From NCBI RefSeq assembly GCF_964355755.1, contig NC_092672.1, positions 27,472,437 through 27,536,436 of the forward strand: DNA of 64,000 bases, written 5' to 3'. The notes under the pieces are model-generated. The model saw only the letters and a program-made list of their open reading frames with translations, ran no database searches and was not told where the DNA came from. This document shows positions 1,053 through 50,200 of this stretch, one piece after another. The translations under genes were made by a program, and so were the position numbers. How positions within the stretch are numbered: position 1 is the first letter of the stretch; each line of letters begins with the position of its first letter. This stretch comes from Antedon mediterranea. Its lineage: Eukaryota; Animalia; Echinodermata.

Positions 1053-3116
1053 ATGGCAGCTGTAAATAAATCCCGTGATGACATGGATACAATTGTAGAT
1101 ACTTACCTTATGATGGCCATGGCATCAAGAGATCTTGTAATTACTCACATTAAAGTTGAGCAGAAACTATGGGATATTGCTTTTAATCAATTACCCTATA
1201 TAACATATCAAAAATATGGGACTGGAAGTTATTTTGAAGCTATGCCTCAGGAGATATGTGGAGATGAAGATTTCATGTATAACCATTCAATTTATCCAGA
1301 TGTATTGTGGCTATTTGAACCAGCAAGGAATGACCATAAAGGTGGTTACGTAATAGCTGAGCAGAATCCAAATGAACCAGTTTATTTCACACTTAAAGTA
1401 AGCAGCAACTGGCCTTTGAATGAATCTTTGAAAAATGTTGCTGTGAATGATTATGTAATACCTGATGCTCTTATATTGTCAAATACATTCTATAGTGATT
1501 CTGAAAAATATCTCAAAACGTCTAGAATGCACGGTCCTTCATTAGAAGCTACTTTAATAAACTCTGAAAAAACAGATCAAACCCCTTGTTTAAAATGCCA
1601 GTCATGGACACTGGAATCAGAATTTTTTACAAGAGAAAGATTAAACTGGCCAACACAAGCAACTTTAAGAAAGATTTCAAAGCTTGATTGTCTATTAGTT
1701 GGTGTTGGACATGCAAGTAGCTCATCAAAAGAAATTGAATGGAGGTTATCCTTTTCCCTTGCTGAAAAAGAACTCTGTTATGAACTTAGTGAACCATATG
1801 TAAGATGCATGTGTGCCCTTAAGGCAATAAAATCTTCAAAATACATTAATTTATTTAGTGAATCTGATTCTCCAACACCATTCTGTTCTTACTTTATTAA
1901 GACAGCTTGCTTCTGGATGTGTGAAACCCTTCCTTGTAACAATCAAAGCACGATGGACTTGATCAGGAAGACTTTGGACTGGCTGATAGATTGCTACCAA
2001 CAAAAATACCTTCCTCATTATTTCATTCCTCAACAAAATTTAATTGGACACTTAACAACGAAAAGTTGCGAAGAAGTGATAGTTTCATTGAAAGCAGTTA
2101 AACGAGACCTGTGGTGCTATGTGATGTCAAGTATCGCAGTTGCAGCTGGTGACTTTACTAACAACACTTTTTGTGTCAAATTCAAGCTCCCCAAACTTTC
2201 AAGTCCAAAGGACTATGCAATACTGGAGTCTACATTACTTGATAGCACATGTAAGATTGAGATCATGAAACGTGATTTAATTAGAGGTTACAATGTATTT
2301 TCCATCGGAAAACGACTATTATGTTATACTGTTTTGCATTGTGCAGAATTTAGTAAAATCATACAAGAACATATGCAAGTACACGTTGATAAATTGGAAA
2401 TTCTTCAACTTCAACTTGGCAATATGATTCAATCAGTCTTAGAAAGTGATGACGATATCGTACCAATCGGCTACAAGAAACTTATTCAGCATCATTTGTA
2501 TTGCTGTTTAGGAGACACTTATACAGGAATGCTGAAATTTTTTCAAAGTACTAGGAAAGATGATCTGCATGACTACCTCAATAAGCCATTGGAATACTAT
2601 GAGAAAGGATCAGAGCTTGTGTACCCTGATGGATGGAGTGATCAGGGTATAGGTACCCAAGTCAATGTGATTAAATATTATTATTTAATGAATGAAGAGG
2701 AAAAACTGAAAGAGATGCTTACCAAGTTTGAACCAGTACTTAGCAAAGTCAAAAGAAACAAAGATGTAATGATGAAACTAAGAAAAGTTTTAATACATGG
2801 ACATCTTACTGATGTTGTAGCCTTTGATGAATTTCCTTGGCAAACTGTTGACAGGGACATATTTAGTCTTGCTAAGAGTTCAACCAACTTTTTTTTTGTT
2901 AATCCAATCGTTTTCGTATTCTATGTAAATGCAAAATTATCACTGAAAGAAGGAGACATTTATAGGGCCTATACAAACTTAAATGAAATGAAGTCAAGTT
3001 TGACTGTGATTCATCTTTTAGATCATGAGATAACACAATCATTAATCCAGATCACAGAAAAACTATTGGTTTTATGTTTGTATAAGTTTTTGTTCTTATT
3101 TAGCAAACTATTCTAA
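1053..3116 (+). CDS. Mab-21/cGAS-like receptor (cGLR) nucleotidyltransferase, copy 1, 687 aa, single-exon CDS
   Basis: NTase motif GTGSYFEAMPQEICGDEDFM (GS-x11-DxD); HGPS...D third acid (KTDQTPCL); Mab-21 signatures [26 protein letters not shown] and LPHYFIPQQNL; then a ~320-aa predicted helical extension. Confidence 0.9.
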   Translation: MAAVNKSRDDMDTIVDTYLMMAMASRDLVITHIKVEQKLWDIAFNQLPYITYQKYGTGSYFEAMPQEICGDEDFMYNHSIYPDVLWLFEPARNDHKGGYVIAEQNPNEPVYFTLKVSSNWPLNESLKNVAVNDYVIPDALILSNTFYSDSEKYLKTSRMHGPSLEATLINSEKTDQTPCLKCQSWTLESEFFTRERLNWPTQATLRKISKLDCLLVGVGHASSSSKEIEWRLSFSLAEKELCYELSEPYVRCMCALKAIKSSKYINLFSESDSPTPFCSYFIKTACFWMCETLPCNNQSTMDLIRKTLDWLIDCYQQKYLPHYFIPQQNLIGHLTTKSCEEVIVSLKAVKRDLWCYVMSSIAVAAGDFTNNTFCVKFKLPKLSSPKDYAILESTLLDSTCKIEIMKRDLIRGYNVFSIGKRLLCYTVLHCAEFSKIIQEHMQVHVDKLEILQLQLGNMIQSVLESDDDIVPIGYKKLIQHHLYCCLGDTYTGMLKFFQSTRKDDLHDYLNKPLEYYEKGSELVYPDGWSDQGIGTQVNVIKYYYLMNEEEKLKEMLTKFEPVLSKVKRNKDVMMKLRKVLIHGHLTDVVAFDEFPWQTVDRDIFSLAKSSTNFFFVNPIVFVFYVNAKLSLKEGDIYRAYTNLNEMKSSLTVIHLLDHEITQSLIQITEKLLVLCLYKFLFLFSKLF

Positions 3117-3467
3117 ATAAAATATTACGCAGCTGCTCTGTGTGCGGTTTGGGTGTTAATCTACTTTGTACACAAGCTTGTAAACGGAATAGATATAGAT
3201 AGATATTCTGAAATGCTGCATGATATACAGTAGTGCTAGTCTAGTAGTTCTGATCGCAATTTCATTAATAAACTTGTCCCTCACTTTGTGGAAAAAGTGC
3301 TAATGTTGGGTTATCTAGGTAATTTAGGCGGGAATTGTATTACAGTACTAACATCTGTCATTTGCCTTTATTGTGGCATTTTTAAAATAAACAACTATAA
3401 AGATTGTGTAGGCCTACTACACATTGACATTTGCCATAACAGAATTATCAAATATATAAATCAAGCT

Positions 3468-3815
3468 AAAAAGACATAGATAGAGTTGTAGAGGAATTTC
3501 TGAAGAGGGGCATGGTATAAAGATTGTTTACAGTGGTTCTATGTGGGATATTGCTTATCAGCATTTACCCTTCATAACTTATCACAAATATATGGTGGGT
3601 GGTTTTATAAATATATGCCAGTGTGGAGATCAAGATTGAATGTTGAAAGTAAACAGCACCTGGCCTTTAGATGAATATTGTATTGTTGACAAGAATGGTA
3701 ACAAATTTCTGAGATGCTTTCAGGTAATTTAATTAAGCGTAAAACTCTACATTGGGCTGAAGTAGAAATAACAGATTTTTTCACAAGAAAATGAATAAAT
3801 AACAGGTCAATTACA
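3468..3815 (+). pseudogene. Decayed 5' fragment of a fourth cGLR paralog
   Basis: Collinear nucleotide matches to the intact copies: tgggatattgcttatcagcatttacccttcataacttatcacaaatat (WDIA...LPFITY-KY), tgtggagatcaagat (CGDQD), aaagtaaacagcacctggcctttagatgaa (KVNS-WPLDE), gttgacaagaatggt and gattttttcacaaga. Large deletions, frameshifts and stops interrupt it. Confidence 0.8.
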
Positions 3816-4934
3816 CCATCAGTCAGTTTAAATATGAAACGTACACAGCAAAACTATGCTATCCAAACACATATACATTTGAGCATGACAAAATATCTGA
3901 CTGAAAACTATATATACCACCAAACCTTGCAAATTTAAAATACTAAGTGGGTGGGTTTAGGTGTGCAATGTAAACTTCTTATCGAATACACTAAATCTTG
4001 ATCGATCGATAAATCGATCGCGCGAAAAATTATATTTTGAAAATAAAATTCAAGAAGAAATGAATAGGCTTACTGTATGTTGTTTTATTTTGTTTGTAGT
4101 ATTTAGGAAAAATGTATGTTTACCATTTATCGTAAATCGTTTTTGCCCTAGTGTGTTGCAGCTTATATAGTTAAGCCAATCAAATGTCAATCATGTTCAA
4201 GTTTATATGCCAACAAATTAAACAACAAACTCCCGAAGCGACATTATTCAATTATTTTGGTTTAAATTTGTAGATTATACATTATTTTAAATGCACACGC
4301 AATCAGGCAATCTGCAGTCACATTTTTCATAATGCCAACCAATTAGTCAACAATATCCTGAAACATTATTGAAATATTTTGGTTTAAATTTGTAAATTTT
4401 ACAATTTTTCTTTTATGCTGCACTACTGTACTACGCGCACACACTTAGGCACAATCTTAAATGAAAATTGTACTGTGCTGAGCATATGCTTATTTCTTTC
4501 TTTCATTTATTTGACATCTCAATACATAACATTAAAAATACATCAATAATATATATAATCACCTTTCATATTAGAAAGATTTGTGAATTTAAATCACAAT
4601 ACTTAGTTTATATTATGGACCAAAAGTGGTAGATCTAACAACTTCTATACTAAATGATTGACTTTAGATTCATGTGTATAAATGGAGATGACGGCTCTCT
4701 ACCTACTAAACACAAGAAAACAATTATAATGTGGTTATACTATAGAATCAATCCAAAATGCGCTGTGCACAGTACAAACTTTAATCTGTGCAACACTTTT
4801 CCACATAATCTGTGCGCAAAGTGTAGTATTAGGTACAGTATATAGATTCAACAAATTCACCCGTACACTGTACAAGTCAATACATTGCTTTTATTGTATT
4901 CTTTGGATTGTAGTATTGCGTTTGTCTACTATAT

Positions 4935-5770
4935 CAAAGAATATATATCACAAGAATGATTATTCCGCGATTTTTGCATGAGAAATTTGTAACAGAGAGC
5001 TCCAGTGAGTGATGCCCGCCCTCATAAGGGCGGATGTATACATACTAAATAAGACTTGATTTAATAGATATTATACATGTCACATTAAATAGAATTATGA
5101 TAATAGTTTTTGCAATTTTAAACTATTTTATAATACATATTTATTAACAAACTAGTGTACATTCACTTTTACAGACAATTATTTACTAACATGCTAAGTT
5201 AGTACACAAAAAAGGCCTAACACAGCAACACCAAAAATCAATGAATCGTTACTCAGCATGGCCTATTCTTTACCATTGCCGTTTACTACTCTACGCCCGG
5301 TAAATTAAGTATTGTTTTTATGATATAAATTAGTATAAAATACATGTTATTAATAGGACAAAATGTTAAATGTTATTAACATTTATTTGTTTTACCAGAA
5401 ACAAGTTAAATATAGGAATATTATTAAACAATCCTTCGTGAAAACGCGTAAACACCACACGCCCGGTCACGCTATCGTAGCGCCCGGTTGATAAAGCAAA
5501 CTGTTTATACGGCAGTTTTTACTAAATAAATTGCATAAAACGAACAATTAAATATCCAAATAGTATTTAACATGAAGTTGGCATGTAGTTGATAACATTT
5601 TTTATCATGAAAATACTACCGGTGGTCTAGCCTTTGATTATTGAAACCGTCACAAAAAGTTGTATACATCCCAGATACATCTACACTTATGGCGGCGCCC
5701 TACCACATGGACAATATTACTGTTACAGGGAAAATCGCGGATTACTCATTCTTGTGATATATATTCTTTG
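4935..5770. mobile_element. Non-autonomous TIR DNA transposon, P-superfamily-like (CAAAG termini, 7-bp TSD)
   Basis: TIR caaagaatatatatcacaagaatga at 4935 and tcattcttgtgatatatattctttg ending at 5770; direct repeat ACTATAT at 4928-4934 and 5771-5777. The superfamily call is inferred from termini and TSD length. Confidence 0.75.
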
Positions 5771-6151
5771 ACTATATTTAGACATAGACGCAATGTAAAA
5801 AAAGCAGCTACGTAGACTATGGAATAATGTATACAGCATACAGTATGTATATTGATTCTTCATTCATTGTTTGCAGAGCTGTTGGTTGAGTCATAGACCT
5901 AGCTCCGTAGTTGAATAAACATATTCTATACAATTATAATGTATAAGCATACGACACAAAAATCATTGAAGTGTGTTACCCAGTCTAAAGGATTACTAGC
6001 TGCAGTATGGGAGTATGATCCAAACAAATAACCGGTATAATGTGTAGGCCGTGTAGTTGGATTTAAGTTCGTGCTTATTACCGTACTGTTAACATCTTAC
6101 TCGATCTTCTTACTTTGTGGTGTTCAAAATAACTAACATCATAATAACAGT

Positions 6152-8188
6152 ATGGCAGTTGTGTGTAAATCAAGAGGTAAAGACAATGATAGAATTGCAG
6201 ATAAGCTTCTTAAAAGAGCCATGTGTTTAAGGTCTCTTCGTATTACTTCTAATAAAGTTAAACAGAAACTATACGATATATCTATTACTGCATCCTGCAA
6301 AAGAAAATATGTAGTGGGAAGTTTGTATGAAGCTATGCCTCACATAATTTGTGGAGATCAGGATTTCATGTTAAATCATCCACTTTATCCAGTTGTGTTG
6401 TGGCCGTTTGAACCAGCAAGAAAGGATCATAAAGGTGGCTATCTAATGGCTCAACAGAATCCAAATGAACCAGTTTATTTTACGCTAAAGGTAAACAGCA
6501 ACTGGCCTTTGGATGTATCTTTAAATTATGCTATTAATGAGTATGGTTATATAATGCCTGATGTCTTTACGAAAGATGAATTCCGTAAATCTGAAACAAC
6601 ATTTCAGGAATCGTCTAGGAAACATGGTCCTTCAATAGAATTAACCCATTATGACTCTACAACAACTGATATTATTTCTTGTTTATCCTGTCAGTCATGG
6701 CCATTGCATTCAGTAGATTTTTTTACAAGAGAAAGAGAAAACAGTTGGCCACCAGATGTGATTTTAAGAAAGATCCCCAAGGTTGATTGTCTGGTAGTTG
6801 GTGTTGGACATCCAACAAGCCCATCAAAAGAAATTGAATGGAGGTTATCTTTTTCTCTAGCTGAACGAGAACTTTGTTATGAACTCTGTCAACCATATGC
6901 TGAATGCATGTGTGCTCTTAAAGCAATAAAATCTTCAAAGTACATTGATCTATTTAGTGAATCTGATTCACCAACACCATTCTGTTCTTACTTTATAAAG
7001 ACAGCTTGCTTCTGGATGTGTGAAACTTCACCTACTAAAGGTCATGTCAGCACTATGAACTTGATCAGGAAGACACTTGATTGGCTGATAAAATGCTATG
7101 AAGAAAGGTATCTCCCTCATTATTTTATTTACCAACAAAATTTAATTGGAAATTTCTCAAGAGAATGTTGCGATAAAATGAGAGTTTCACTGAAGACAGT
7201 CAAAAGAGATCTTTGGAGCAATGTGATGTCAAGTATTGCTGTTATAGTTGGTGGTTGTATGGATGTCATTCTAGATCATCAACTCTTTATTCCCAATAGC
7301 CCTAAGGAATATTCAGAACTAATAAATAGCAAAGATAAGATTAAGGAGATTAACACAAATATACTTAGCAATGATTTTACAAAAGAGTTTGAACTACGGT
7401 GTTTAACTACTTTGCAGTGTTTTGTATTTAGTGGTATCATACAAGATTATTTCTGTCAAAAAATCGATCCATTAGAAATTATTCAACTTCAACTCGATGA
7501 TATAATTGAATTAGTCTTAGAAAGTGATGACAAAAATAGTACCAATTGGCTACAAGGAAGTTTACATTATTTATATTGCTGTTTAGGAGATACATATACA
7601 GGTTTATTGAAATATTTACAAGACTGTGGGATATATAATCTGCAAGACTACCTCAACAAGCCATTGAATTGCTATGAGAAAGGATCAAAGCTTTTGTACC
7701 CTGATGGATGGAGAGATCAGAGATGTATAGGTACCCAAATTAATGTTATTAAATTCTACTATTTAATGAATGAAGAAACAAAACTGAAAGAGATGCTTGT
7801 CAAGTTTGAACCAGTACTTAGCAAAGTCAAAAGAAACAAACAAATATTGACAAAACTAAGAAAAGTTATAATAGGTACTACTAAAAACACACAAGTGGAT
7901 ATTTATGCATGGCGTATTGTTGATAAGGACATATTTGGTATTGCTAAAAATTCAAAACATATTACTTGCTTTAATGCAATTGTTTTTATATTTTATGTAA
8001 ATGCCAAACTATCACTTAAAGAAGGAGACATTTATAGAGCATATGAACATTTAAATGAAATGAAGTCAATTTTACATGTCATTAAATTAGCTGATACTGG
8101 GGGTACACTAAAGTTGATTATGATCATAGAAAATTATTTGATTAAAAGTGTATATATGTTTTGGTTATTATTTAGAAAGATCTTCTAA
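6152..8188 (+). CDS. Mab-21/cGAS-like receptor (cGLR) nucleotidyltransferase, copy 2, 678 aa, single-exon CDS
   Basis: VVGSLYEAMPHIICGDQDFM, HGPS...[45 protein letters not shown]; alignable end to end with copy 1. Confidence 0.9.
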   Translation: MAVVCKSRGKDNDRIADKLLKRAMCLRSLRITSNKVKQKLYDISITASCKRKYVVGSLYEAMPHIICGDQDFMLNHPLYPVVLWPFEPARKDHKGGYLMAQQNPNEPVYFTLKVNSNWPLDVSLNYAINEYGYIMPDVFTKDEFRKSETTFQESSRKHGPSIELTHYDSTTTDIISCLSCQSWPLHSVDFFTRERENSWPPDVILRKIPKVDCLVVGVGHPTSPSKEIEWRLSFSLAERELCYELCQPYAECMCALKAIKSSKYIDLFSESDSPTPFCSYFIKTACFWMCETSPTKGHVSTMNLIRKTLDWLIKCYEERYLPHYFIYQQNLIGNFSRECCDKMRVSLKTVKRDLWSNVMSSIAVIVGGCMDVILDHQLFIPNSPKEYSELINSKDKIKEINTNILSNDFTKEFELRCLTTLQCFVFSGIIQDYFCQKIDPLEIIQLQLDDIIELVLESDDKNSTNWLQGSLHYLYCCLGDTYTGLLKYLQDCGIYNLQDYLNKPLNCYEKGSKLLYPDGWRDQRCIGTQINVIKFYYLMNEETKLKEMLVKFEPVLSKVKRNKQILTKLRKVIIGTTKNTQVDIYAWRIVDKDIFGIAKNSKHITCFNAIVFIFYVNAKLSLKEGDIYRAYEHLNEMKSILHVIKLADTGGTLKLIMIIENYLIKSVYMFWLLFRKIF

Positions 8189-9503
8189 CATAAATCTAGT
8201 ATCGCTGTTTGTATCATAGTCTTTAAACTCAAGTATCAAAACAAAATAGAAGGTTCTGCAATAATGCGCAAGATTGATTCTAGCATGACTGAAAATAGCA
8301 TATTACACTTGCTACAGTCATAGCAGGAAATTGCCGTACCTAATAATACTGTAGGTACAAGTATAAGAAATTAAAAAGGATGAGTATAGCATAGAATAGC
8401 AAAAATCCTATGTTATAATATCTTGCATCTGAATTCCTGTTTCCAACCAGGTCATCTATTTATAGTACAAGTAAAAATGACGGAATTCTTTGAATAAAAT
8501 ATTAAAAAGGTTTAGAGTTTCTTTCAAAATATAAGACATATTAGTTGAAAGAAGAATGAAGGCTAACAGAGCAGAATATCCAATATTACAATATTAAGTA
8601 TTGTACATTTTAAATACTGTAAATTTTGGGCGATAATATCAAAGTTTATTTTGGTCAGTAATTAAATAGGCCTAGACCTAGATAGGCTAGGCCTAAATAG
8701 AAAAAACACCTTGTCGACTTGTTGTTGCCTTATTAATTATTGCCATCGTGTTGACGGGTTGATTAAATACACATCATTTTTTTATTTGTGTATTTTAATT
8801 CTCGAAACCGACCAGACACGACACGTCGATGAAAATCTTCTGACCAACAACCGTTTACAATTATGCGCTCTCTATGTTGAGTAAAATTAAAGATGGTAAA
8901 ATTACGCACCGTTTGTAAACCTCTCCCTTGCGTGAAATCCTTCCGATCCTTCCGTCCAATAGACATAAAATAAATCGGAAAAAAAGCCAATGTTACATTT
9001 CTTTATTTTGTAAACTGTTTAAATTAAAAACATTTCTAAACACATACCGGCTTTTAAAAGATAATTTGATATATGAATTGTTTTAATTTAGCACTGAAAC
9101 AATACATTTAAAGAAATGTAACATTGACTTTTATTCTGATTTATTTACTATACTTGTGAACTCGTAATAAAGTCAACTCAATAAAACTATGTCTACACTA
9201 TCAAACTAGTTTGACAAAAAAAAAAGTGCGATGTAGCCAAATATGGTAGTGATATGCCCAAATTATACAAATCTATTATACCTCCTCACCTTGGATGTTG
9301 TTCAATTCAATTATTTCTCCATGTCAGGCCCGTCGAATTGACGCTGTTCAACGGAAGTTTGTACGGTTCCTGTCTTATAATTGTCCTAATTTTGCCTTTT
9401 CCATTAATTCTGTTCAGCAATCGTCGTACTATATCTGATATGTTTTTTAAAATATTTTTTTAACATTTTAAATTTTGAATATGACTGTTAATTTCGCAGC
9501 TTA

Positions 9504-11053
9504 TCTATATATAAATTTACGTAAGGGCAAAATTCGGTAAATCGCGCCTTACTTCTAGAATTTTTACTCGATGGTATATAAAGTTGGTTCGTACTTTCGG
9601 TACTGATTTTAACCACCTGATGTAACCCTGTTTACTAATTAAATTAAGTTAGATAATTAGTTATTGGCGATTAAAACGAATTTAGGTTCAACGATTTGCC
9701 CCAAATAGGGGTGTTTTCCGATCGTGGTATACACTGTCTAATGGATGTCCGTCTTGAAAAATACCCGCCACAAAAATGCGAGGAGGCTTCGCATTTTCCT
9801 ATCTCCTCCTACGATAATTGTTTTTAATAGCTGAAAACCGGTTGAACAGTTCGAGTACAGCATCATAATGTTGAAGACAGGCCGATTTTCTTTAAAAATA
9901 CTATTTTGATACATTTAATATACGTTTTTACAAATGTATTGATTTGTGATGAATGGAACATTCCAAATTATTTGGTTTAACCATACAGGTATAGATTTAG
10001 ATTTATGGGCCCCCTTGGAGAATAAACATAAATAGTATTGCAATGCTGTACAATACTGTTAAGGTATTAACCACTTTTGATCGCAATTTGAATCGCAAAT
10101 TTCTTACTGTGAGTGTTGGTACTGTTAGATGTAATATAAAAATATATACAAATAAACTTTATTACTGTGAGTGTGGGTAGGCCCTACTGTTAGATTATAA
10201 ACATATAATATAGAAATAAACATTCCAAATTATTTGGTTTAACCATAGAGGTATAGATTTAGATTTATGGGCCCCCTTGGAGAATAAACATAAATAGTAT
10301 TGCAATGCTGTACAATACTGTTAAGGTATTAACCACTTTTGATCGCAATTTGAATCGCAAATTTCTTACTGTGAGTGTTGGTACTGTTAGATGTAATATA
10401 AAAATATATACAAATAAACTTTATTACTGTGAGTGTGGGTAGGCCCTACTGTTAGATTATAAACATATAATATACAAATAAATAAACGTTATTACTGACA
10501 GTTGCTTCTCAACGTTTGTATTAATTAATAATTTAAAAATATATAAACGTCGTAGTGGTGTACTTTACTATTTCAATCGACTATGACAGTGAGAGTTTTA
10601 ACAAAGTACCGTATTAAATCGTAAATGTTTTACTGTATTTAGTGGTATATTATTTATAGGCCTATAAAACATTAAAAACAATATTTCGTTACTGAGTGGA
10701 TAAGAATATATTTTAAAATGTTTCCTCTTTGTACCTATCTTCTTCCCCCATCCCTCAACCCTTAATGTTACATACAAAACACAAATTGGGTTTGTTTAAA
10801 TGAGTCCAAATAAAAAAATTTGACTCATTTTGTTTTTCTCTCGGAAGTAATTCCCAGGGTGCTAATTTTGGTTGACTACATAAATCATTGTGTATATTTA
10901 TTCGTTTCTGTAAACGACAATATGTATTATAGTCCTGCGGTACGTACACTGTTTGAAATCTCCATTTTTTTCTCGCTGGAAATACTGTGTATTCGAGAAC
11001 CATCTGTGGGCACGACCTAGATGGTACGCGAGCGAAGCGAGCGTGCCATCTAG
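9504..11053 (+). mobile_element. Non-autonomous Helitron
   Basis: Starts A|TCTATATATAAA and ends with hairpin ctagatggtacgc-gagcgaagcga-gcgtgccatCTAG|T. It is inserted between A and T with no TSD. Homologous pieces occur at about 37982-38455 (+) and 62324-62548 (-). Confidence 0.8.
9957..10480. repeat. Near-perfect 262-bp tandem duplication inside the Helitron
   Basis: aacattccaaattatttggtttaacc... starts at 9957 and again at 10219, with only a couple of mismatches. Confidence 0.9.
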
Positions 11054-11499: not shown

Positions 11500-11643
11500 A
11501 TCTGCGCATGTCTTACGCAGCTTTATAGGTACGATGGCAAACATCGCTTCTTTCGATGACGTAACAATTGTTTACCTTTGAGTTAGTTTGCACGTAGTAG
11601 AGCATACTGTGGTTATTTATCGTTTACAATTTTGCTAATCAAA
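11500..11643 (+). promoter_or_regulatory. Putative SLC6 proximal promoter/5' region
   Basis: CpG-containing stretch just upstream of ATG 11644 with TGCGCATG (NRF1-like) and TGACGT (CRE-like) motifs. Motif presence only. Confidence 0.3.
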
Positions 11644-14600
11644 ATGTCGACATTAAAGACCCGTTTTATTCAAGTAACACCAGTAAGTTATTCTTGAATA
11701 TCATTTCCAACAAACTGTATAGTTTGATTTTATTTTATTTCAGATTTAGGTGAAAATACAGTGATTTAAAAAAATTATATTTGGCGCTCATCGGGGACGG
11801 CATAGAAAAATAAGGTCCGGGCACAATGTGTGATTTAGGTTACTGGGTATCACATCTGTCAAAACTCGGAGGGAAATACAGTATTTAAAAGTTTACCACA
11901 TAGGCCTACTATTTAGTATAATGCTTTAGCTATAACTTTAAACACGGGGAAAATACAGATGTTGCTTTATCTCTCTATTGCTATATTATTTGTAGTAAAA
12001 CAAAAAAAGAAAACAATAATATTAATATTACAAAACCGTAGTACTTAACGCAAATTTGTCCTCTGCACATACCAACAGCGCAGGTTCTGTCTTGACAACA
12101 GTTACGCCCCACTGTTGTTGTGACATCATGGAGAGGGTTTTCTTCTTCACAATGTAATATTCAGTCAGCCGCCGGCCGCAGAAAAGAAAGTGGTTACGTC
12201 ATAGACACGTCGGTGGTGTGATTGGCGGTTGTGTGTGACGTGAGGTCTACTTTTAACCAATAAGCTTCTGCTGTCTGGCATCTATAATTTACATATTATT
12301 GTGGGGATCATCTCATTATTACAGCAGCAGGAAGTACGCGCGGTAGAGGAGCGCGCGAGATCGAGCTAGAGAGAGAACATAACCCAACCAACGACATTAT
12401 CCTCGCCCGGCCCTGAGACAGGCTGTAGCATAGGCGTATAATTAATAAGCCTAGCTAGGCCTAGTAATGGTTTAAGGTTAGGCCTAATGATGTATTTTTT
12501 TAAATATATTTGTGCAGATTGATAACATTGAGGAGGACATCGAATCTCAAGTATCAGAGGGTGATGATGTAGGCCTAGGCCTAGGCCTATCTCAAGAAAG
12601 CACAACTGTGCGGGATGCATGCATCCTCAAAATTGAGAATGAGACTGAGACTGTCGAGAGTGATTCCTCATCTGCAGACCAAAAAGACATAGGCCTAGAC
12701 AAGAGTCTTTTTGAAGAAGGAAAAAGTAGTAGTGAAAACAGCACCTCAAGTAGAGGCACATGGGACAATAAAACAGATTTTCTGTTGTCTTGTCTGGGGT
12801 ATGCTGTTGGGTTAGGAAATGTTTGGCGATTTCCTTACCTGTGCTATGAAAATGGTGGCGGTAAGCATCTTAATTTAATTTAATTTTTTATTTAAAAACT
12901 GTAAAGTTTATGTTTATAAACATCATTAGTATAGAGGCCGAGATAAAAAAAAAAGTGCATCCTTCACTACACTGTACCACTCCTAGGCCTAGAACAAAAA
13001 CATTAACAATAAAAAATCATCTTTTCTAAGGCCTATGCTCGCTAGAGTAGTACTATACTAGGCCGCCTATAGTATAGTACTGTACTGATTAGGTTATAAT
13101 GCAGTGTACATAAAGTAAAGCATCTGGCGGAGGCCTATTATTATACCATGTTCGCCTTAATTAAAACTTCTGAATAGGCCTAGGCCTAGGCCTATTTCAT
13201 TTCTTTTTCTAAACCAAATTATGGAATGAACTTCAACAATATAAATCTCTAAATTAGAATCTTAAAGATGTATTTTCCCTCAAAAACATGAAAAATGAAG
13301 AGTAATAAAATCAGACTTTATAGGCCATTTTGCAGTTTACAGTAATAATAAAGTTATCCACTTTAATAAAAAATTTAAATTTTTTTTTTCACAAACGGTT
13401 TTCAGTTCGGAAATTAATTATTTTGAATGGTTTAAGAAAAATTGTTTGATATTGTATTCATCTATATTGCTCTGATTTAATTATTATTATTTTATTATAT
13501 TATAATCATAATGATTAAATCATAAATGATTAAAGTAAAATGTTCAGCTTATTATTGCACACTAAACAGACTGTATATGAGAATATGTATATAAAATCAT
13601 GTATCATTTTAGGTGCATTCCTTATACCTTATGCAACCATGCTGTTGTTAGCTGGACTTCCCATGTTCTTCATGGAGCTTTGCCTTGGACAGTACTCCAG
13701 CAGTGGACCAGCAACTGTCTGGAGGATTTCACCAATGTTTAGAGGTAAATCCAAAATGCTAAATAATGAATAAAGATAACACTACATTTTAATTTAACAG
13801 ACACATTTATGTTAAAGATTTAACTACAGCAACAAAATGAACAAAACTGGTTTCAATTTGTTTTGAATACTACAATAGTAACCGACCACAAATTTATACT
13901 ACACTAAATAATAAATTTTGAAGTTTAACTTAGATAATAAATAGTATTATGATAGAACCTCTATTAAGGGGACACCTTTGGGACCAAAAAAGTGTCCCCT
14001 TATAATATACAGTATTATATTTCCATTGTTCATGTCATGGGAAAGTGTCTCCTTAATAGGGATGTCCTCTAAATAGGGTGTTCCACTAATTGTTTCACTT
14101 TTATCGTTTCACATTGTTAGATTAAAATAATGTATTGTTACTGCATCATGATGGGAAAATTTAAAATCTGTTTATACGTTTTTGCAGTTGTGTATCAAAT
14201 GTTTTGGTCGCCCTTTCATGACATGTTTTTTTTCTTTATAAATGTGTTTTGTTAATTCTTTATTCACTTGGAATTTGTAAGACAACTCCAGAAATCTTAG
14301 GCTTTGGTCTTTGTTTCCTATTCCTTCCTGACTGAGGAATCATTGTTTTCAAACTTAGTTTTGTTGTCGTTATGTATAGGAATGGGTTACGGAATGGTGC
14401 TGATTTCAGCTTTTATCGGCCTTTACTACAATGTGATCATAACATACATATTGTATTACATGTTTGCTTCATTCACTAACAAACTGCCCTGGATCGGATG
14501 TAACAACCCTTGGAACACGGACATGTGTAACGGCATCTACGACGAGTGTCTGCGCACTGGTAACAAGATCATGACGGTGAACAACACATGCGTTGGTGTC

Positions 14601-17600
14601 GACTCCCTTTCAGAAGAACAACTTGACTTTTACAATATTGGACTCAACACACTAGGAGAAATAGATCTAAGTAACTACATCGATCCATTGAAGTCAAAAC
14701 GGAAACTTCCCAGCGAAGAGTATTTCAAGTAATTTTATAGTTTTATTTTATACAGAGTTGAAAATTGATATGTGATTAGATTACTGTTTCGTCAATGATG
14801 CCACAGAATAACTCTAAACATGTACTTTTACAGAAAAAAAAATGTAAATAAAATATGATGGCTAGGTAATAGATCAACTATGTTCATATTGTACTTACGA
14901 ACATTAGCCATTAACATCAACTTTGATGAATTGAAACAGGGATCAGCTCAGAAGTTTGTAAATGCCAAATGGTTGCAAAAACTATTTTTTATTTTAGGAA
15001 TGCTGTCCTGCATGAGGCATCTGGGATTGGTGAATTGGGCACTGTTGTTTGGCCATTACTAAGCTGTCTTGTCTTTGCTTGGATCATCATCTATTTCTGT
15101 CTTCAAAAAGGCATTAAATCTTCAGGAAAAGTAAGCAATGCAATATATTTCAATTTATATCAAAGAAGATCTTTAAATTAATCTCTCAATAAAAACAATA
15201 TGCCCATGCTAATTTTAATTGAAGTTGGTTTAAGATTTTAAGTACTAAGAGACGTTTACTATATAACTTCAAAATAAAATGTAATGACAAAAACAGATTG
15301 ACATTTCTGAACCATGGTGGTTATGATGCTTGGCTACCACTTCAAGGTTCAAGCCTGTCACATGTCAGGATTTTTTCTAAGGACAAAATTACAACTCCAC
15401 TCCCAAAGACTTTGTTTATGTAGAGCATCTTGTGTATATGTTTGTCTTGTGGATCTCTGAGGGTCCCTAATGATCAACAATTGCTGGATGGATCACCCTG
15501 AATAAATATGGTCCAAAAAAAAAATCATGGAACGTCCATTCTCAAGAACAAATAAGTCACATTAACAACTAAACAAAGTACGAACACCAAAGGATGACAG
15601 GAAATAATTAACAATTAGTTACAAAGACTGAAAAATCTAAAATGATAGGCTTCTCTTGTTAATTATTAAACAATTTGGCTGAGTCATTTTGTTTTTTCTT
15701 AAAACAGGCACTTTTTTTTAATTTAAGATTTGACAATGAGATTTCTATAGGTGTGACTTGGTATAAATTGTATGTTTAGCTAATCAGTTTATTCACTAGT
15801 GGTAGTAGCAACAACTGAAATATGTACTGTATTCAATTTTATAGTATAGCTACCAATAAATTGTTAATGTTTGAATGTCTTGTTTTATATAGGTGGTATA
15901 CTTCACAGCCACATTATGTTTGAATGTCTTGTTTTATATAGGTGGTATACTTCACAGCCACATTATGTTTGAATGTCTTGTTTTATATAGGTGGTATACT
16001 TCACAGCTACATTATGTTTAAATGTCTTGTTTTATATAGGTGGTATACTTCACAGCAACATTCCCATACATTGTATTGGTACTTTTCTTGATACTTGGAC
16101 TGACATTGGAAGGTAGTTACAACGGCATTAAGTTCTTCCTAACCCCACGCTGGGAAATCCTCTATGAACCAAAAGTATGTTTTTTTTTAATTTCTATATT
16201 AGTAATATTATTATTATTATTGTTTGTGTATCATTTGTCATGTGTATGCAGATCCATCCCATCCCCTCAATTCTGTAAAAGTCTCCAGATGTATTGAATG
16301 GAGCGGTAGACTCCGGTCATCCGGTACGAACGGCTATAGAAATTTGTTTATCTCTAATGGGATATGATGTAATGACAATTTTCAGAGATAATCTGTTTGA
16401 TATATTTAATTAGATAGTTGTTTTTAATATCATCATTATTGTATTCTTGAACTTCGAACAATGTAAAATTTCCTGTGAAGGAGGAAATAAAGTTTATCTG
16501 TATCTGTATGTGGTAAATTGGGTAAAGTTTTTATGAAATTCAAGTAAAAAATCTTTATTATGTTTTCAACAATAGGTATAGAACCAAAATTGCTTACTGG
16601 TTATGTGACAGAGAAATGGATATCAAATACAAACATATAAAAAGCTTTTAGGCTTATGTATTAGTTATCTGATTATAACTATAGGTATCCCAATGTAAAA
16701 ATTTAAATTAATGATGGTATTTTTTCTTTTTTCAGTTAATCAAAAGGAACTTACTGACTGAACCTAAACTTTTTCAATTTAAATGATTGAAATCGGATTA
16801 TCCATTCAAAAGTTATGGTCCGTTAAAGTTGCCAAAAAAAAAGAAAAAAAAGTTCTTATTTTTGCCAATAGATACCAGAATCAGCATGAAGCCATGGTGC
16901 CCGACCCTCAGATTTAAATATGGCGTTTGACAACACACAAAAATAATAATCACTACATCATTATTTTTTTAGGTATGGCTGGACGCAGCAGTTCAGATTT
17001 TCTTCTCCCTTAGTACATCATGGGGTGGATTACTGACATTGTCCTCATACAATAGGTTCCACAACAACTGCTACTTGTGAGTGAATGAAATATATTATTT
17101 ATAATTAAAACATTTTCTGAATTTGAAAAAAAATGAAATATTATTTGACTGTATGATTGGAACCAATCTGAATTCGGAAAAAAAAATGCTATTAAACTTT
17201 GAATATTTTATTGCCAGAGACCAATGCTTGTCATTGTCTGGACTTAGAAACCATCAAATCTGTGTCTACGTGGGAAGCCAATAAATATGTCCCAATATCC
17301 TTGCATGCATACAATAGATTAACATTAAGTTTGATCATCGGCGCCGGAAATTAAAAGTGTTTTTCACCATGCAAACCTTTTAATGCATAATAAAATTATA
17401 TAAAATAATGTTTGTTTAGCATTTTCCCAGCCATGACAGTAATAAATATGATTACCTTTACAGTGATGCCATATTCATAGCCCTAGCCAATTGTATGACC
17501 AGTGTATTCGCTGGAGTTGTAATCTTTTCCATCCTTGGCTTTATGGCAAATGAACTTGGACGAGAAGTCAGCGAAGTTGTAGACCAAGGTATGAAAATTT

Positions 17601-20987: not shown

Positions 20988-21212
20988 AGGATCATTAAGG
21001 TCCTGGCAGAGGGTGTGCATGGGACAAGCGGGGGCTTCAAAATAATGTGGTAAGAAAATATTAGGTATATTATATAAATATGAGTGTATTTTCAGTGATC
21101 CTACCTAAATTTTTTATTATTAGCATTTTGAAGAACAATCAAAGCAGAGAGCTTCACTGGAACACATTTTAGCTCAAGACATTTTCATATTGATTATTTT
21201 TTAACACATTAA

Positions 21213-24200: not shown

Positions 24201-24397
24201 GCTTCCAGAGGCTGTTAAACTGGCCGAAAATCGTTATTTTTCGATTTTCTCGAAAACTAAGCGATATTTTACCAAACAAACTACACATCAGGTTTACTTG
24301 CATCAAGGTCTACCAATGTGCAAAATATGAGCCAATTCGAAATTTTGACCCTTGCCTCTAAATTACGAATATGTCTGATTTTTGGTGACAAGCACTC
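21213..24397 (+). mobile_element. Sola3-like DNA transposon, internally deleted, with ~700-bp TIRs
   Basis: TTAA at 21209-21212 and 24398-24401; termini 5'-GAG...CTC-3'; long inverted repeats at about 21213-21930 and 23715-24397; broken transposase-like fragments inside. Confidence 0.8.
22380..22898 (+). pseudogene. Frameshifted C-terminal remnant of the element's transposase-like ORF
   Basis: Segments in different frames: KWKGVSHINN, KVWMAYGIGAG and LQHPIMFEMHNICEL...FSLPMLQEMC...KRKKPYIDLLGKLVSMCSC. They resemble, from recall, C-termini of invertebrate transposase-derived proteins, and lie between the TIRs. Confidence 0.55.
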
Positions 24398-24786
24398 TTA
24401 AAAAGCTTGGAAAATAAGCTATTAAATAACTTAATTTAAGTTTAGAGAAAAATTGCAAAATCAGTACTGTGGTCATGTTACGAAAGTCAAGTTCTGAAAA
24501 CAATATACTATCTGATAATTAACTTAACCACATAAAACTCATAGAAAGAAGGAAGCGTTTTGCCATTTTTCCCCTGACTTTTATATTATGACTAAACATT
24601 AGTGTTGTCACCGACCAAATGTTTGTAAAGGGAATGTTTAAAAAGTAAATTAATGTTTCTCTTTGTTTACTTTCAAACAGAAATAAACATAAAAAACTGA
24701 TGAGGACAAAGGAATCAGTCCTAGTGTAAACTCTCTACATAAAATGGATCTGGACCAAGACCATGTAAAGGTCAAGACAATAGAGG

Positions 24787-44200: not shown

Positions 44201-47200
44201 GTTGTTTCTAGCTCTTGAGATGAAGTAATCATACAAGTTATCTTGAGTTGGTGGATGTCTGGGAAATTCCTTCTTCATGACGGGAATCAACTCTTGCGTT
44301 ATCTCATCCAACTCTTCACGAGCAAATAAATTAGAGACCTAGAGAGAAAAAAATAAATAAAATACAGCATTATTATTAAAAAACAATAATATTTTTGCAT
44401 TAAAAAAAAATCTTTACATTCTGAAAATCATCCAATTCAAAAAAATGCTATTATTTTTTTCAACATAGTACACGTAATATTTGGACTGGGTCAGTGCTAT
44501 TTTGAAGTTCATATTTTAAATCATGAAGGTTAGTAGTCTTTCTTGTTACTCTTCCAAGAATTTACAGGGTTTTAAACTTGCAATATATTGTAACATTTAA
44601 AACAAAATATAAAGATTTTCAGTAGGTATAAAGAGCTAATGAATTAGCTTACCTCTCCAGAGCTGAGGACATTGTTGATATATTCTAAGAAGGCTTCATC
44701 CTTGACTTCATTATCAGTGAAGATGAATGTGATACCTTGGCCCTCACAACCAGCAACACGATACATGTACTTGAGATCATCCATCAAGTTCGTAACATTG
44801 TAAGACCTTAATTTTTATAGAATTTAATTTTAATAAAAGACATGTAATGTGATTAGGATAATACCTGTATAATTGCAATTTATAAGAACAGAAAGCAAAA
44901 ATAAAGATGAAGGAAAAAATATAAACCATAAAAAATTGATTTAGACAGGGCAATGCATGGTAATAAACATCAAATAAATTATATAATAATTTACTAAAAA
45001 AGATATATAATGTGATTAGGAAATAATATTGTTAATGTAATGTACGGTAATAGGCATAAAATAAATTGTAATTAATTTTAATTAAAAAAGATATAATATA
45101 ATGTGATATGGATAACATATTGCAGTTTTAAAGACAGCAACATTAAGAAGGAAAAAAGAATGAATTTAAACTATATAACTGATTTAGATGCGGCAATTAT
45201 GCATGACATTGTAAATAAAACATAATATAAATTGTATATTATATGCATTTCCAACACTGATATAGCCAGAATGGTGTTATTATACAATATTAGCAGCTAG
45301 CAAATCCCTGGAAGATAGACCAAATTATTGGTTGTGTTTTTTTTTTGTACAGTAATAATACCATCAGGTTTTCCACTATACTTATAGTAGCTAGTTGTTG
45401 CTATTTTGATAAACAATAGAAGATCAAAATCCCCATTGTTCACATAACTAATTTCAACAACTCCCAACTCTTCATCCCTTTACCCACTTCACACATTGAA
45501 CCTTCACTTACTTTATTCAATCATTTTCAAATCAGAGTAAACATTAACAGACAGAATTTAAGCAAACTAGAACAGATTAGAAAAAGACCTTTGTACAACA
45601 AAAAGCAATCACTATTTACATGATCATCAAACCCTTCTAAGGTACAGTACAATAGACAGTGTGAACTTTTTTTTTAAGTTCACTCTATTTTGACTGCTTT
45701 TGAGTATTGCTGTTGGAAATATCTCTAAATTCTATCCTTGTTAAATTACAATAAATTACTTGAAATAACTGTAAGTTTGTGTACCATTACGAATTGCACC
45801 TGCGGGCCAGTAGAAATATGAGCAGAATATTACGTGAAGACATGGATTCAATTGCAGATTCGTTTCTTAAAATGGCCCTGTCAGATAGGGATCTTCACAT
45901 TGCTCAACTTAGAGTTGAACAGAAAGTAAGAGATATTGCTTTTACAGAATTACCCTTAATATCCTACAGAGAATATTTGCAAGGGAGTTTTTATGAATCA
46001 ATGCCGAAAGCATTATGTGGAGATCAAGATTTAATGTTTAGTCAACCAATTTATCCAGTTGTATTGTGGCCATTTGAACCAGAAAAGATGCATCCTACAG
46101 GTGGATATGTAATAGCTGAGCAGAATGCAAAGCAACCAGTTTATTTCACACTTAAAGTACACAGCAACTGGCCTTTGGATGAGTCTTTAAAAGACATTGT
46201 TGATAAGAATGGTTACATTATGCCTGATGTTTTTATAAATAATGAATTTCATAAAGTTTATACACCATCTCAAGGAACGTATAGAAATCATGGTCCTTCA
46301 ATAGAACTTACCAGCAGGGACTTAGTATTAGTGATGGATCAACTATATTGTTTCACCTGCCAGTCATGGCCATTGCATTCAGAAGATTTTTTCAATAGAG
46401 AAAAACGAAATAACTGGCCAACACAAGCAATTCAAAGAAAGATGGCTAAGCTTGATTGTCTGGTAGTTGGTGTTGGACACCCAAGAAGTGCATCAAAAGA
46501 AATTGAATGGAGGTTATCATTTTCCCTTGCTGAAAAAGAACTCTGTTATGAACTTAGTGAACCATATGTTAGATGCATGTGTGCCCTTAAGGCAATAAAA
46601 TCTTCAAAGTACATTAATTTATTTAGTGAAGTCAAATCTGATTCACCAACACTATTCTGTTCTTATTTTATTAAGACAGCTTGCTTCTGGATGTGTGAGA
46701 CTTTTCCTCCTGAAGGTCATAGCACTATGGACTTGATTAGGAAGACACTTGATTGGCTGATAAAATGCTATGAAGAAAGTTACCTTCCTCATTATTTTAT
46801 TCGCCAACAAAATTTAATTGGAAATTTATCAAGGGAATGTTGTGAAGAAATGATAGTTTCATTGACAGCAGTTAAACAGAACCTGTGGTGCAATGTGATG
46901 TCAAGTATTGCAGCTGCAACTGGTGACATTATCAAAAACTCTTTTAGTTTCATATTGAACATCTCTGAAGAACCAAATAGTCCAAAAGACTATGCAAAAG
47001 TGGAATCTTTCCTACTAGCTAGCGTTAATAGGATTGAACAGATGAATAATGTTTTAACACAACTTATGGATGGTTTTGTCAGTTGCGCACGACTATTATT
47101 TTTAAATACATTAGTTTTTTCAGAATTTAATAGAATCATAGAGCATAATGGGGTTGATCCATTTGTAGTTCTTAAGCTTAAATTTGACAACATAATTGAA

Positions 47201-50200
47201 TCAGTCTTTGAGAATGATGACAACTTAGTACCAAATGGCTACACAAAATTTTTTAAGCATCATTTGTATTGCTGTTTAGGAGATGCTTATACAGCATTAT
47301 TGAAATGTTTACAAAGTAGGCCTACTGGGAGAAATGATTTGGGTGACTACCTCAATAAGCCATTGGAATATTATGAGAAAGGTTCAGATTTTGTGTACCC
47401 TGATGGATGGAGTGATCAGTGCATTGGTATTCAAATTAATGTCATTAAATATTACTATTTAATGAATGAAGAGGAAAAACTGAAAGAGAAGCTTGCCAAT
47501 TTTGAACCAGTACTTAGAAAAGTTAAAAGAGACAAAGATGTAATGACAAAACTAAGAAAAGTTTATGTACTGTGTGCTTCGCAAAATGAATTAGCTAATT
47601 GGCATAACATTGACAATGACCTAGACCTAGGTCTTGTTGTTAATGATAAAATATTTGTATTTAATCCAATTGTTTTCATATTTTATGTCAATGCAAAAAT
47701 ATCACTAAAAGATGGAGACATTTATAGAGCATATGCAAATTTAAATGAAATGAAGTCAAGTTTAACTGCGATTCCAATATTGGAAAGATACGATATACCT
47801 TTGCTAATTACGATTATTGAAAGGTTATTGGCTAATTGTTTATATAGATTTTGGTTCTTATTCAGAAATCTTTCCTAAATATAAAAGCTATGCAGTTGCT
47901 CTATGAGTACAGTGTGAATATACCTAATTGTTACCCTACTTATTCAAACTTATGGTTTATGTTTTGCATGTCTTTTGTTTTACAGTTTTATATATTAACT
48001 ATTTCTGCATGTATCTAGCTCTTTAGAGGCGTGTTTTTATGGCAATACCTATTGTTTGCCTTATACAGTTGAGTACGTATCGGCTGGTGCCTAGAAAAAA
48101 ATAATCGGATGTAATGTAAACTAGATTTAATTCGTCACTATGACGAATTATAGGTTATATGCATTGATTTAAATAAAGATAATTGATTGATTTAAGATAT
48201 TTTGATTGATTGATTTTCTCAGAATCTTTAGTTATTTATAATATATGATAGGATCTTGCTAACGCAAATACAATAGCCGGTATCATAATCCGATCAAAGA
48301 TCCTTCTGCGTATATAATGTCGTGAACCACATTTGTGTTTTTATCTAAATTTCATTATAAATCATCTGTATAATCTATACACTAAGAATACAATTGAACA
48401 AACAATACGGATAATAAAAAAAAATCTTATTTCGCTTCGTTTCCCAATGTGAGACTCGAACTCGGTACCTTGAATGCTATAGACACGAGAAAAGACCACC
48501 GAGCCATACACAACGGACTAAAAATTATGGAAAGATTCCTCCATGTATTTACTATGCAGTAACCACTTTGGTGCAGATAGATTATTACATACCGCAATGA
48601 ATTATAATGTTTTACTATGATGACATCTTTAAAGATTTTTAAAAATGATGCACTGTCAAACTATATACTTTTAACTTTAATATATGAACTTCTTAAAATG
48701 GACCTGAATGGATTTTCGATTTTTTTCATTTTAGAATGATGTTTTGGGGGCTATTAGGTGTTGCTAGAATGTATATTGTTACAAAATATAAATTGGCCCT
48801 TTTGGGGAAAGCCCCATTTGAAAATCAAAAAAATTCGCGGGTGACGTCACTTTGCGAATATATTCCTATCCCTCCAATGGAAAATTTGCAGTTTTTTGGC
48901 TATAACTCTTGAAATCTATGGAGTATTTTCTAAAAAATGCTTGTGCATTTGCAGAAACGTATTTAGAATTTTTTTAGATAAAATTATTACCGTATAAACG
49001 GTTATTCATCGAGAAAATGACGATTTAAAATCTTAAAATCAACGGTTTTTTTCTGGCAATACCGAAGTTGGCCTGGCAACGTTGTCCGGGATACAGCTCC
49101 GTGCGCAATGATGCGTATCCATATTTTCCGTTCGTGTATTTTGTATATCGTTCGTAATTTATACTGCTAAAATTTGTTAGTTTCTTTAGTTTTTAGTTTA
49201 GCAGAATTAAATTAGTAATATGAGATGATAATTTATTTGTCACGAATCAGGCAGTTTGAAAACAAATTTTATTCATATTTTACTTTGGCTTGACAATGAG
49301 CGCAGGAAGTTGTTGATATCGCTTTGGTCCTTGGATACACATGAAACGGAGCCTCGCCGCATGATGTGGGTGGTGGATCGACTCCGCGCTCTGGATTGGG
49401 GGCCTAGGCCTAGTAAAGGTTTGGGAGGTAGGCCTTCTAAATTTGGGTTTTAGAACAAACGAAGTATATTTTAGGGACCTATATTTCAACACCATTAGAT
49501 ATTGAATAAATTAGTATTAGTGTTCCAGGCTGTCGATCATTCACTGACTATCGGGCGGCATACACGCTCTCGATATCATCGTATGTATATGTGACGTCGT
49601 GAATATAGAGGCTTCCGACGGCCGTTGAAATAGAATATTGCAATGGCGTGAGTAATTTTCACTAATTTACCATGGTATCTTAAAATTTCGTTTTTACTCA
49701 AAATACTATACATTTTGTTTTTATTTGTGTGGGTTTGTGTTAATTTGATACATTTAAATAACATGTGTGAATTTCTTGAAAAACGAAATTCCATTTCAGG
49801 TCCATTTTAAGGAAGAAAGTTAATGTTAAGTTTGTTATTTCGGCCTAAGAAAATGTTATAATTTGTTTGATTGTCGAAATTAATTTTTGTAAATTTAATA
49901 TGCCATTAATGATGACTTAATCAACTTTTGTTCTCTTAATTTCATAATAAATCATACATATGATAAATACAGTACACTTCAAGAAAATGAAATAAAAAAT
50001 AGCTGTTCCCGAGCATTCCAACGATATATATTAATTTAAAAATTTAGCATATTTTCACCATTTTGTTAACTTATACGTGCGTAGCCAGTCACTTTTGACG
50101 TGCTCGTATAACGCAATTTCGAGTTGAAACGTGAATCAAATATGATATTATTAAAGATTGTAAAACAGAAATCGGGCAAAAAGAGTGCGCTTAACGCTTA

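What the first reader, a model, noticed from the sequence alone, without database searches (positions are those of the whole stretch)
1053..47878. Family of three catalytically intact cGAS-like receptors with an unassigned ~320-aa C-terminal module
Seen: three single-exon paralogs (1053-3116, 6152-8188, 45818-47878) each keep GS-x11-DxD plus the third Asp after HGPS. After the Mab-21 domain (ending near VMSSIA) each has a long shared tail with [24 protein letters not shown] and [12 protein letters not shown]. Established: cGLRs are innate-immune sensors that make cyclic dinucleotides for STING, and they are expanded in invertebrates. Inference: this is a lineage-specific sensor family in which a helical, TPR-like tail acts as ligand-binding or autoinhibitory domain, so ligand and product may be new.
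Basis: partly seen in the sequence, partly recalled or inferred. Interest (0 to 1): 0.78.

Follow-up and report, generated by a model that had tools for sequence, protein, structure and literature searches.

The report
Feather-star cGAS-like sensors with TPR tail
Three intact genes, closest to feather-star genes, encode cGAS-like enzymes that likely make an immune alarm nucleotide, each with a predicted TPR-like helical tail also found in anemone, coral and bivalve relatives, so they are ordinary members of an already catalogued family whose tail remains untested.

Summary
The three ORFs are real (687, 678, 686 aa, about 60% identical). All keep GS plus three catalytic Asp, and the model of A matches cGAS (Z 25.7). 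They are cGLRs of a crinoid-expanded clade; 6 of 6 closest Anneissia relatives checked are already in the Li et al. 2023 cGLR catalogue. The 315-325-aa tail has no Pfam match and folds as a helical solenoid whose best structural matches are mostly TPR proteins (Z up to 10.5, modest for a helical fold). It is not lineage-specific: it follows the NTase domain in anemone, coral, scallop and oyster cGLRs, and is homologous (HHalign 92.7%) to the common bivalve cGLR tail, some of which carry Pfam TPRs. A and C are acidic and so probably not nucleic-acid sensors; B is basic. Ligand, product, activity and tail function are untested. Verdict: new members of a known kind; the unannotated ancient tail is a modest lead.

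The parts
1053..3116 (+). cGLR paralog A, 687 aa: NTase/Mab-21 domain about res 1-362 (G58 S59, D71, D73, D175), helical linker about 363-474, TPR-like helical pairs about 475-687; NTase domain acidic (pI 5.38)
2139..3116 (+). Tail of A (res 363-687): predicted helical solenoid; three TPR-like helix pairs with a hairpin insert (YPDGWSD) and a strand-helix insert (about res 576-617); family-conserved G487, Y516, G519, D530, Y544, D600, Y624
3457..3800 (+). Decayed 5' fragment of a fourth paralog (frameshifts, stops, internal deletion); ends approximate
6152..8188 (+). cGLR paralog B, 678 aa, tandem with A; NTase domain basic (pI 8.46; first 50 residues net +9)
45818..47878 (+). cGLR paralog C, 686 aa, NTase domain acidic (pI 5.78); nested antisense in a dynein heavy-chain intron
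44807..53222 (-). Host intron (GT..AG, 8,416 nt) of a dynein heavy-chain gene; the flanking exons join in frame within the AAA_8 region

Best explanation
These are three intact, recently duplicated cGAS-like receptor genes of a crinoid-expanded clade, whose products likely act as ligand-gated enzymes that would make a cyclic dinucleotide for STING, with a predicted TPR-like tail that likely serves as a regulatory module. Shown: intact frames, catalytic residues, cGAS fold in the model, clade placement, and presence of the tail in cnidarian and bivalve cGLRs. Inferred: the enzyme is off until a ligand binds. It then joins two NTPs at the D71/D73/D175 metal site; 2'3'-cGAMP is the single most likely product by base rate. 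The tail is an old part of the 'long' invertebrate cGLRs and probably binds a protein or other non-nucleic-acid ligand or holds the enzyme off. A and C (acidic) probably do not sense DNA or RNA; B (basic) is the best dsRNA candidate. The copies arose by local duplication, one landing in a dynein intron and one decaying.
For: GS/DDD in 3 of 3 window proteins and 53 of 57 aligned rows. AF2 model of A: pLDDT 91.7, pTM 0.92, D71/D73 and D175 on strands 72-78 and 173-182; match to human cGAS Z 25.7, rmsd 3.4 over 305 residues; Foldseek best E 5.3e-12. Tree: A, B, C and Antedon P0001 form one set (SH-aLRT 100) inside a 23-row set whose other 20 rows are all named crinoid proteins (99). 6 of 6 Anneissia relatives checked are in Li et al. 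Table S1; Anneissia has 47 cGLR and 3 STING genes. The tail model is mostly helical, pLDDT 86.1; top VIA rows are mostly TPR proteins, best Z 10.5, rmsd 4.5, 149 aligned. 24 of the 24 newly found tail hits of 430 aa or more also carry the NTase domain. dN/dS 0.26-0.32 in the NTase C-lobe and 0.36-0.53 over res 475-575 of the tail. Li et al.: nucleic-acid sensors have pI above 8.5, acidic ones are proposed to sense other ligands, 2'3'-cGAMP is the most frequent product; full-length pI here 5.99, 8.36, 5.69. A 712-aa acidic construct, Sp-cGLR2, makes 2'3'-cGAMP with an unknown ligand.
Against: No activity, ligand or product data for this clade; 'Anneissia' was not found in the screen table. The literal Li et al. 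motif is not fully met: 101-102 residues between the second and third Asp against X50-90, and polar residues at some 'h' positions, though catalogued Anneissia relatives look the same. TPR assignment is moderate: Foldseek found nothing at E<=0.001 for the tail, Z of about 10 is within the range the tool calls common for helical folds, and only weak Pfam TPR rows (E 0.078-0.31) appear, in 1 of 15 tails. Whether Sp-cGLR2 has this same tail is unknown (its table cell is cut at 400 letters). MB21D2, an orphan with no known activator, matches the fold as well as cGAS does (Z 24.7). pI is a crude guide. No STING gene could be looked for in this genome.
Confidence: 0.6

Rival explanations
1. Active cGLRs in which the tail is only a structural or localising appendage, and sensing happens at the usual back-face groove of the NTase domain, possibly for dsRNA.
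For: [quoted passage not shown]
Against: The tail keeps a conserved R/G/Y/G/D/Y/D/Y set from cnidarians to crinoids. Its linker and insert diverge at dN/dS near 1 between conserved helices, which fits a diversifying contact surface, though also relaxed constraint. The NTase domain has pI above 8.5 in only 6 of 41 family rows.
Confidence: 0.25
2. Orphan Mab-21-fold proteins like MB21D2: catalytic residues kept, but the product is not a STING ligand, or the role is not immune.
For: MB21D2 has a complete site and does not respond to known PAMPs; it matches the model at Z 24.7. Of 58 screen constructs read, 11 are 600 aa or longer and only 2 of these are among the 15 enzymes picked as active.
Against: Birth-and-death pattern (tandem pair, nested copy, relic, many Anneissia paralogs) is typical of immune receptor families (established knowledge). 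One crinoid relative carries a BIR domain. Two long cGLRs are active in vitro.
Confidence: 0.12
3. Recent pseudogenes or silent copies that happen to keep open frames.
For: Overall dN/dS is fairly high, 0.53-0.58; a decayed copy lies beside A; a family-conserved tail Arg is Cys in all three and in P0001.
Against: Three 2-kb frames stay open at dS 0.43-0.54 with dN/dS about 0.3 in the C-lobe; all catalytic residues are kept.
Confidence: 0.03

Closest known systems
Anneissia japonica cGLRs in Li et al. 2023 Table S1 (e.g. XP_033108468, XP_033120355, XP_033121068) and Antedon mediterranea XP_071944364
   Same: Full-length homology, 35-40% (the closest Anneissia rows) and 55% (Antedon), same NTase-plus-tail layout, same clade
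   Different: Window copies form their own subclade with the Antedon protein and have Cys at a family-conserved tail Arg; Table S2 gives the six Anneissia records only Mab-21 (one also BIR), so their tail is unannotated
cGLR-TPR architecture (Li et al. 2023, Fig. 1C and Table S2)
   Same: NTase followed by a TPR-like helical region; tail profile aligns with a 13-row bivalve-type tail profile at 92.7%, E 4.1e-7, 174 columns; reversed controls 0.2-0.3%; Mytilus P0067 of that group passes Pfam TPR_1 and TPR_2
   Different: The canonical TPR of that group lies at its C-terminal end (P0067 res 591-623; most Table S2 rows seen at res 615-775), beyond the aligned region; the window tails have no Pfam TPR and carry a hairpin insert
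Sp-cGLR2 (XP_022802921, 713 aa, pI 5.66) and Cv-cGLR2 (XP_022344877, 632 aa)
   Same: Long cGLRs with about 300 residues beyond the NTase that Table S2 leaves unannotated; both active in vitro; Sp-cGLR2 is acidic and makes 2'3'-cGAMP with an unknown ligand
   Different: Homology of their tails to this tail could not be tested; different phyla
cGAS, Sp-cGLR1, Cv-cGLR1, MB21D2 (solved structures)
   Same: Same NTase fold and catalytic site
   Different: About 19% identity; the solved chains do not cover the tail; cGAS, Sp-cGLR1 and Cv-cGLR1 sense nucleic acid

Membership tests
cGLR (Li et al. 2023 criteria) | Catalytic GS and three acidic residues | tested here: met
   GS/DDD in 3 of 3; the GS and first two Asp of C align to the cGAS catalytic motif
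cGLR (Li et al. 2023 criteria) | Literal motif h[QT]GS X8-20 [DE]h[DE]h X50-90 h[DE]h | tested here: inconclusive
   Spacing to the third Asp is 101-102 and some 'h' positions are polar; catalogued Anneissia members deviate in the same way, so the authors did not apply it literally
cGLR (Li et al. 2023 criteria) | [quoted passage not shown] | tested here: met
   Pfam Mab-21 and Mab-21_C; phmmer to solved cGLR/cGAS, best E 4.8e-10
cGLR (Li et al. 2023 criteria) | Predicted structural homology to cGLR/CD-NTase | tested here: met
   Model of A against cGAS Z 25.7, rmsd 3.4, 305 aligned; B and C not modelled; metal-site distances not measured (no coordinates returned)
cGLR as functional PRR | Ligand-dependent cyclic dinucleotide synthesis that activates STING | not testable with these tools
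   Needs enzyme assay; no genome held to look for STING
Nucleic-acid-sensing cGLRs | pI above 8.5 and basic ligand surface | tested here: inconclusive
   Full-length pI 5.99, 8.36, 5.69; NTase domain 5.38, 8.46, 5.78 (Biopython, not the paper's algorithm): well below for A and C, borderline for B; surface not inspected
TPR domain | Canonical 34-aa repeat detectable by Pfam TPR models | tested here: not met
   No TPR family in A, B or C at E<=1; weak rows in 1 of 15 tails
TPR-like alpha-solenoid | Stacked antiparallel helix pairs matching solved TPR structures | tested here: inconclusive
   Best Z 10.5 (rmsd 4.5, 149 aligned), list dominated by TPR proteins, but under the Z 13 that the tool calls common for helical folds; Foldseek nothing at E<=0.001
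Bivalve long cGLR (cGLR-TPR) tail | Profile homology of the tail | tested here: met
   HHalign 92.7%, E 4.1e-7, colinear over 174 columns; reversed controls 0.2-0.3%; hmmsearch alone did not detect it

The most novel reading that the evidence does not exclude
The tail is an ancient interrupted-TPR sensing domain shared by the long cGLRs of cnidarians, molluscs and crinoids and counted as 'no extra domain' in the published census. It recognises a non-nucleic-acid ligand (a pathogen protein or a modified host protein) through a conserved R/D/Y site and fast-evolving inserts, and switches on the NTase. That would make these the first cGLRs gated by an appended receptor domain, possibly with a new product.
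Probability: 0.25. Interest if true: 0.7.

Novelty: new member of a known kind. Interest (0 to 1): 0.3.

Why it matters
The genes themselves add little: close crinoid relatives are already catalogued. The useful point is the tail. 10 of 10 Table S2 records that I could tie to this tail or its bivalve homologue are annotated there with Mab-21 only (one also BIR), so the published '87% have no extra domain' figure probably hides a large tailed class. What activates acidic cGLRs is an open question in that paper. Three paralogs that differ in charge (A and C acidic, B basic), with defined domain borders and conserved tail residues, give a ready tail-deletion and swap test.

Tried and rejected
Own genome: none held, so no genome-wide paralog count and no STING search. 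Single-sequence tail search found only 1 protein among 1698 candidates, which would wrongly suggest a narrow family; the profile search found 80 representatives. Tail profile against PDB sequences: best E 0.12. Foldseek of the tail: nothing at E<=0.001 in PDB or the viral library. ESM Atlas: all shown hits under 0.9 (mollusc hypothetical clusters and one Mab-21_C cluster), leads only. Split NTase-versus-tail complex job: 'no answer', score 0.00, alignments not used; no evidence either way. Expression: no RNA holder listed. Contigs of run X1 (kind guessed) cover much of 1337-3943, and two break off at dynein splice sites, but no spliced joint was shown and intronic contigs are present too, so this is not used as evidence. 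Two further tail groups (34 and 23 unnamed rows) align only weakly to this tail (16% and 25%), and a 3-row group at 4%; homology not claimed. Transmembrane anchor: best 19-residue hydropathy 1.64-1.73, not at a shared place in the three proteins, so not claimed. No flank homology between copies beyond about 30 nt, so retroposition versus DNA duplication for C is unresolved. Lower dS (0.13-0.16) between A and C at alignment codons 220-280 could be gene conversion; not tested. The careful tree did not finish; the quick tree has SH-aLRT only and 73 rows picked from the proteins held. Earlier findings: none returned. Literature: 8 searches returned no paper that appears to describe this tail; only Li et al. 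was opened, its large supplementary PDF could not be read and may show it, and subscription journals are not in the library.
Full report
Observation. The window is AT-rich (GC 0.29-0.39) with intron-broken animal genes and three long ATG ORFs: A 1053-3116 (687 aa), B 6152-8188 (678 aa) and C 45818-47878 (686 aa), all on +. B and C are 60% and 61% identical to A over the full length. Each has GS-x11-DxD and a third Asp after HGPS. Pfam finds Mab-21_C above cut-off in all three and Mab-21 above cut-off in A and C. The tails after VMSSIA are 325, 315 and 321 aa, with no Pfam family at cut-off.

Surroundings. A and B are tandem. Between them lie a decayed 5' piece of a fourth copy (about 3457-3800) and an element with 41-nt inverted ends (4934-5771). 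A sodium:neurotransmitter symporter gene follows on +, and a dynein heavy-chain gene runs on -. C lies antisense in a GT..AG intron of the dynein gene, 44807-53222; the flanking exons join in frame. Homology between copies ends within about 30 nt of the coding region. No whole genome was held.

NTase domain. With a 57-row alignment, AlphaFold2 gave A a mean pLDDT of 91.7 and pTM 0.92; D71/D73 and D175 lie on strands 72-78 and 173-182. The model matches cGAS and cGLR structures (Foldseek best E 5.3e-12; Z 25.7, rmsd 3.4 over 305 residues, with MB21D2 at 24.7). GS plus three Asp are kept in 53 of 57 rows; three of the four others are gapped there and one has GN. The literal Li et al. motif is not fully met (third-Asp spacing 101-102 against 50-90), but their own catalogued Anneissia records deviate alike. 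Pairwise dN/dS is 0.53-0.58 overall, 0.26-0.32 in the C-lobe, 0.36-0.53 over res 475-575, 0.58-0.94 in the linker and 1.06-1.27 in the short 576-617 insert, the last on only 22-25 synonymous sites.

Relatives. The closest is Antedon mediterranea XP_071944364 (55%), then many Anneissia japonica proteins (closest 35-40%) over most of the length. In a quick tree of 73 selected NTase domains, A, B, C and the Antedon protein form one set (SH-aLRT 100) inside a 23-row set (99) whose other 20 rows are all named crinoid proteins. The window is therefore most likely from a feather star (inference), and the expansion is crinoid. I looked up the six best Anneissia hits in Li et al. (PMC9980059): 6 of 6 are in Table S1 as cGLRs, and Table S2 gives them Mab-21 only, plus BIR for one. 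Table S5 lists 47 cGLR and 3 STING genes for Anneissia. The name did not occur in the screen table.

The tail. Folded alone with a 15-row alignment it is mostly helical, pLDDT 86.1. Foldseek found nothing at E<=0.001. The exhaustive aligner ranked mostly TPR proteins on top (best Z 10.5, rmsd 4.5, 149 aligned; also APC/C, NASP, kinesin light chain, Sti1), which is under the Z 13 the tool calls common for helical folds. TPR-like is thus likely but no particular TPR family is identified. The tail profile hit 80 of 1.84 billion representatives. Of the 59 not seen before, 24 are 430 aa or longer and 24 of 24 carry the NTase domain; the other 35 are shorter, 4 with part of the NTase and 31 without. 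Named carriers include Actinia tenebrosa (E 5.0e-26), Mizuhopecten yessoensis (4.6e-10) and Saccostrea echinata (8.1e-9), Stylophora pistillata and a cluster holding a Pocillopora record. Ten positions are kept in 75% or more of 92 tails, among them G487, Y516, D530, Y544, D600 and Y624; the conserved Arg at 484 is Cys in the window subclade. A 13-row group of mostly bivalve tails was not detected by hmmsearch but aligns profile-to-profile at 92.7%, E 4.1e-7, over 174 columns, with reversed controls at 0.2-0.3%. One member of that group passes Pfam TPR_1 and TPR_2 at its C-terminal end, where most Table S2 TPR rows seen also fall (30 of 51 places shown). So the tail is old, widespread, and related to the published cGLR-TPR architecture, although unannotated in the ten records I could check.

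Mechanism. Shown: intact genes under purifying selection, catalytic residues, cGAS fold in the model. From the family: cGLRs make cyclic dinucleotides after binding a ligand, most often 2'3'-cGAMP, and nucleic-acid sensors have pI above 8.5 while acidic ones are proposed to sense something else. Here full-length pI is 5.99, 8.36 and 5.69, and the family median for the NTase domain is 6.3, above 8.5 in 6 of 41. I infer that A and C respond to a non-nucleic-acid ligand, that B may sense dsRNA, and that the tail regulates or binds ligand. The high pTM suggests a fixed tail-to-enzyme arrangement, but I could not see coordinates, so where the tail sits is open. The nearest functional precedent is Sp-cGLR2 (713 aa, pI 5.66, 2'3'-cGAMP, unknown ligand); its tail sequence was cut in the table and could not be compared. 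Among the 58 numbered screen constructs I read (3 of 8 parts), 11 are 600 aa or longer and 2 of these are among the 15 chosen as active, which fits either a missing ligand or inactivity.

Literature seen. PMC9980059: passages, sections 5 and 6, supplement searches and parts; the large supplementary PDF could not be read and may bear on the tail. All other papers were seen as search listings only. Eight searches showed no paper on this tail. That birth-and-death evolution marks immune families, and that the two dynein exons are contiguous in other dyneins, are recalled, not from a call.

Verdict. Real and well described, but ordinary: new members of the cGLR family, in a clade already catalogued. 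What remains is a testable lead, an old and largely unannotated tail on long invertebrate cGLRs. Interest 0.3.

Noticed in passing
window 26267-61805 (-): Multi-exon dynein heavy-chain gene (Pfam AAA_7, AAA_8, AAA_9, lid, Dynein_C); its 5' part probably continues past the last exon seen
   Followed up: partly
window 12491-20025 (+): Multi-exon sodium:neurotransmitter symporter (SLC6/SNF) gene, convergent with the dynein gene
   Followed up: partly
window 4934-5771: Element with 41-nt inverted ends, 95% complementary, and summed contig depth far above its flanks: likely a non-autonomous DNA transposon between A and B
   Followed up: partly
window 21209-21927 and 23717-24401: About 750-nt inverted pair, 78% identical, around short ORFs at 22018-23617 with no Pfam family at cut-off for the one tested: possibly a decayed DNA transposon
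   Followed up: no
window 48000-51900: High-copy repeats fill most of the dynein intron just downstream of C; contigs skip 48111-50597
   Followed up: no
window 63309-63653: About 350-nt palindrome, 88%; 262-nt tandem duplication at 9957-10480
   Followed up: no
P0006 (Anneissia XP_033106383): Same cGLR plus tail, followed by a BIR domain at res 756-819
   Followed up: no
P0121, P0122, P0124, P0131, P0137, P0152: Proteins of 335-352 aa that hold the tail without an NTase match; may be split or broken genes or stand-alone tails
   Followed up: no
P0068-P0120, P0229-P0234 (unnamed): A 57-row group of Mab-21 proteins with their own long tails; those scanned (P0068-P0120) mostly lack a GS-x9-13-DxD match, and the longer ones appear to carry a partly duplicated tail
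   Followed up: partly
A, B, C and P0001, res 484 of A: Arg kept in 75% of 92 tails is Cys throughout the window subclade
   Followed up: no
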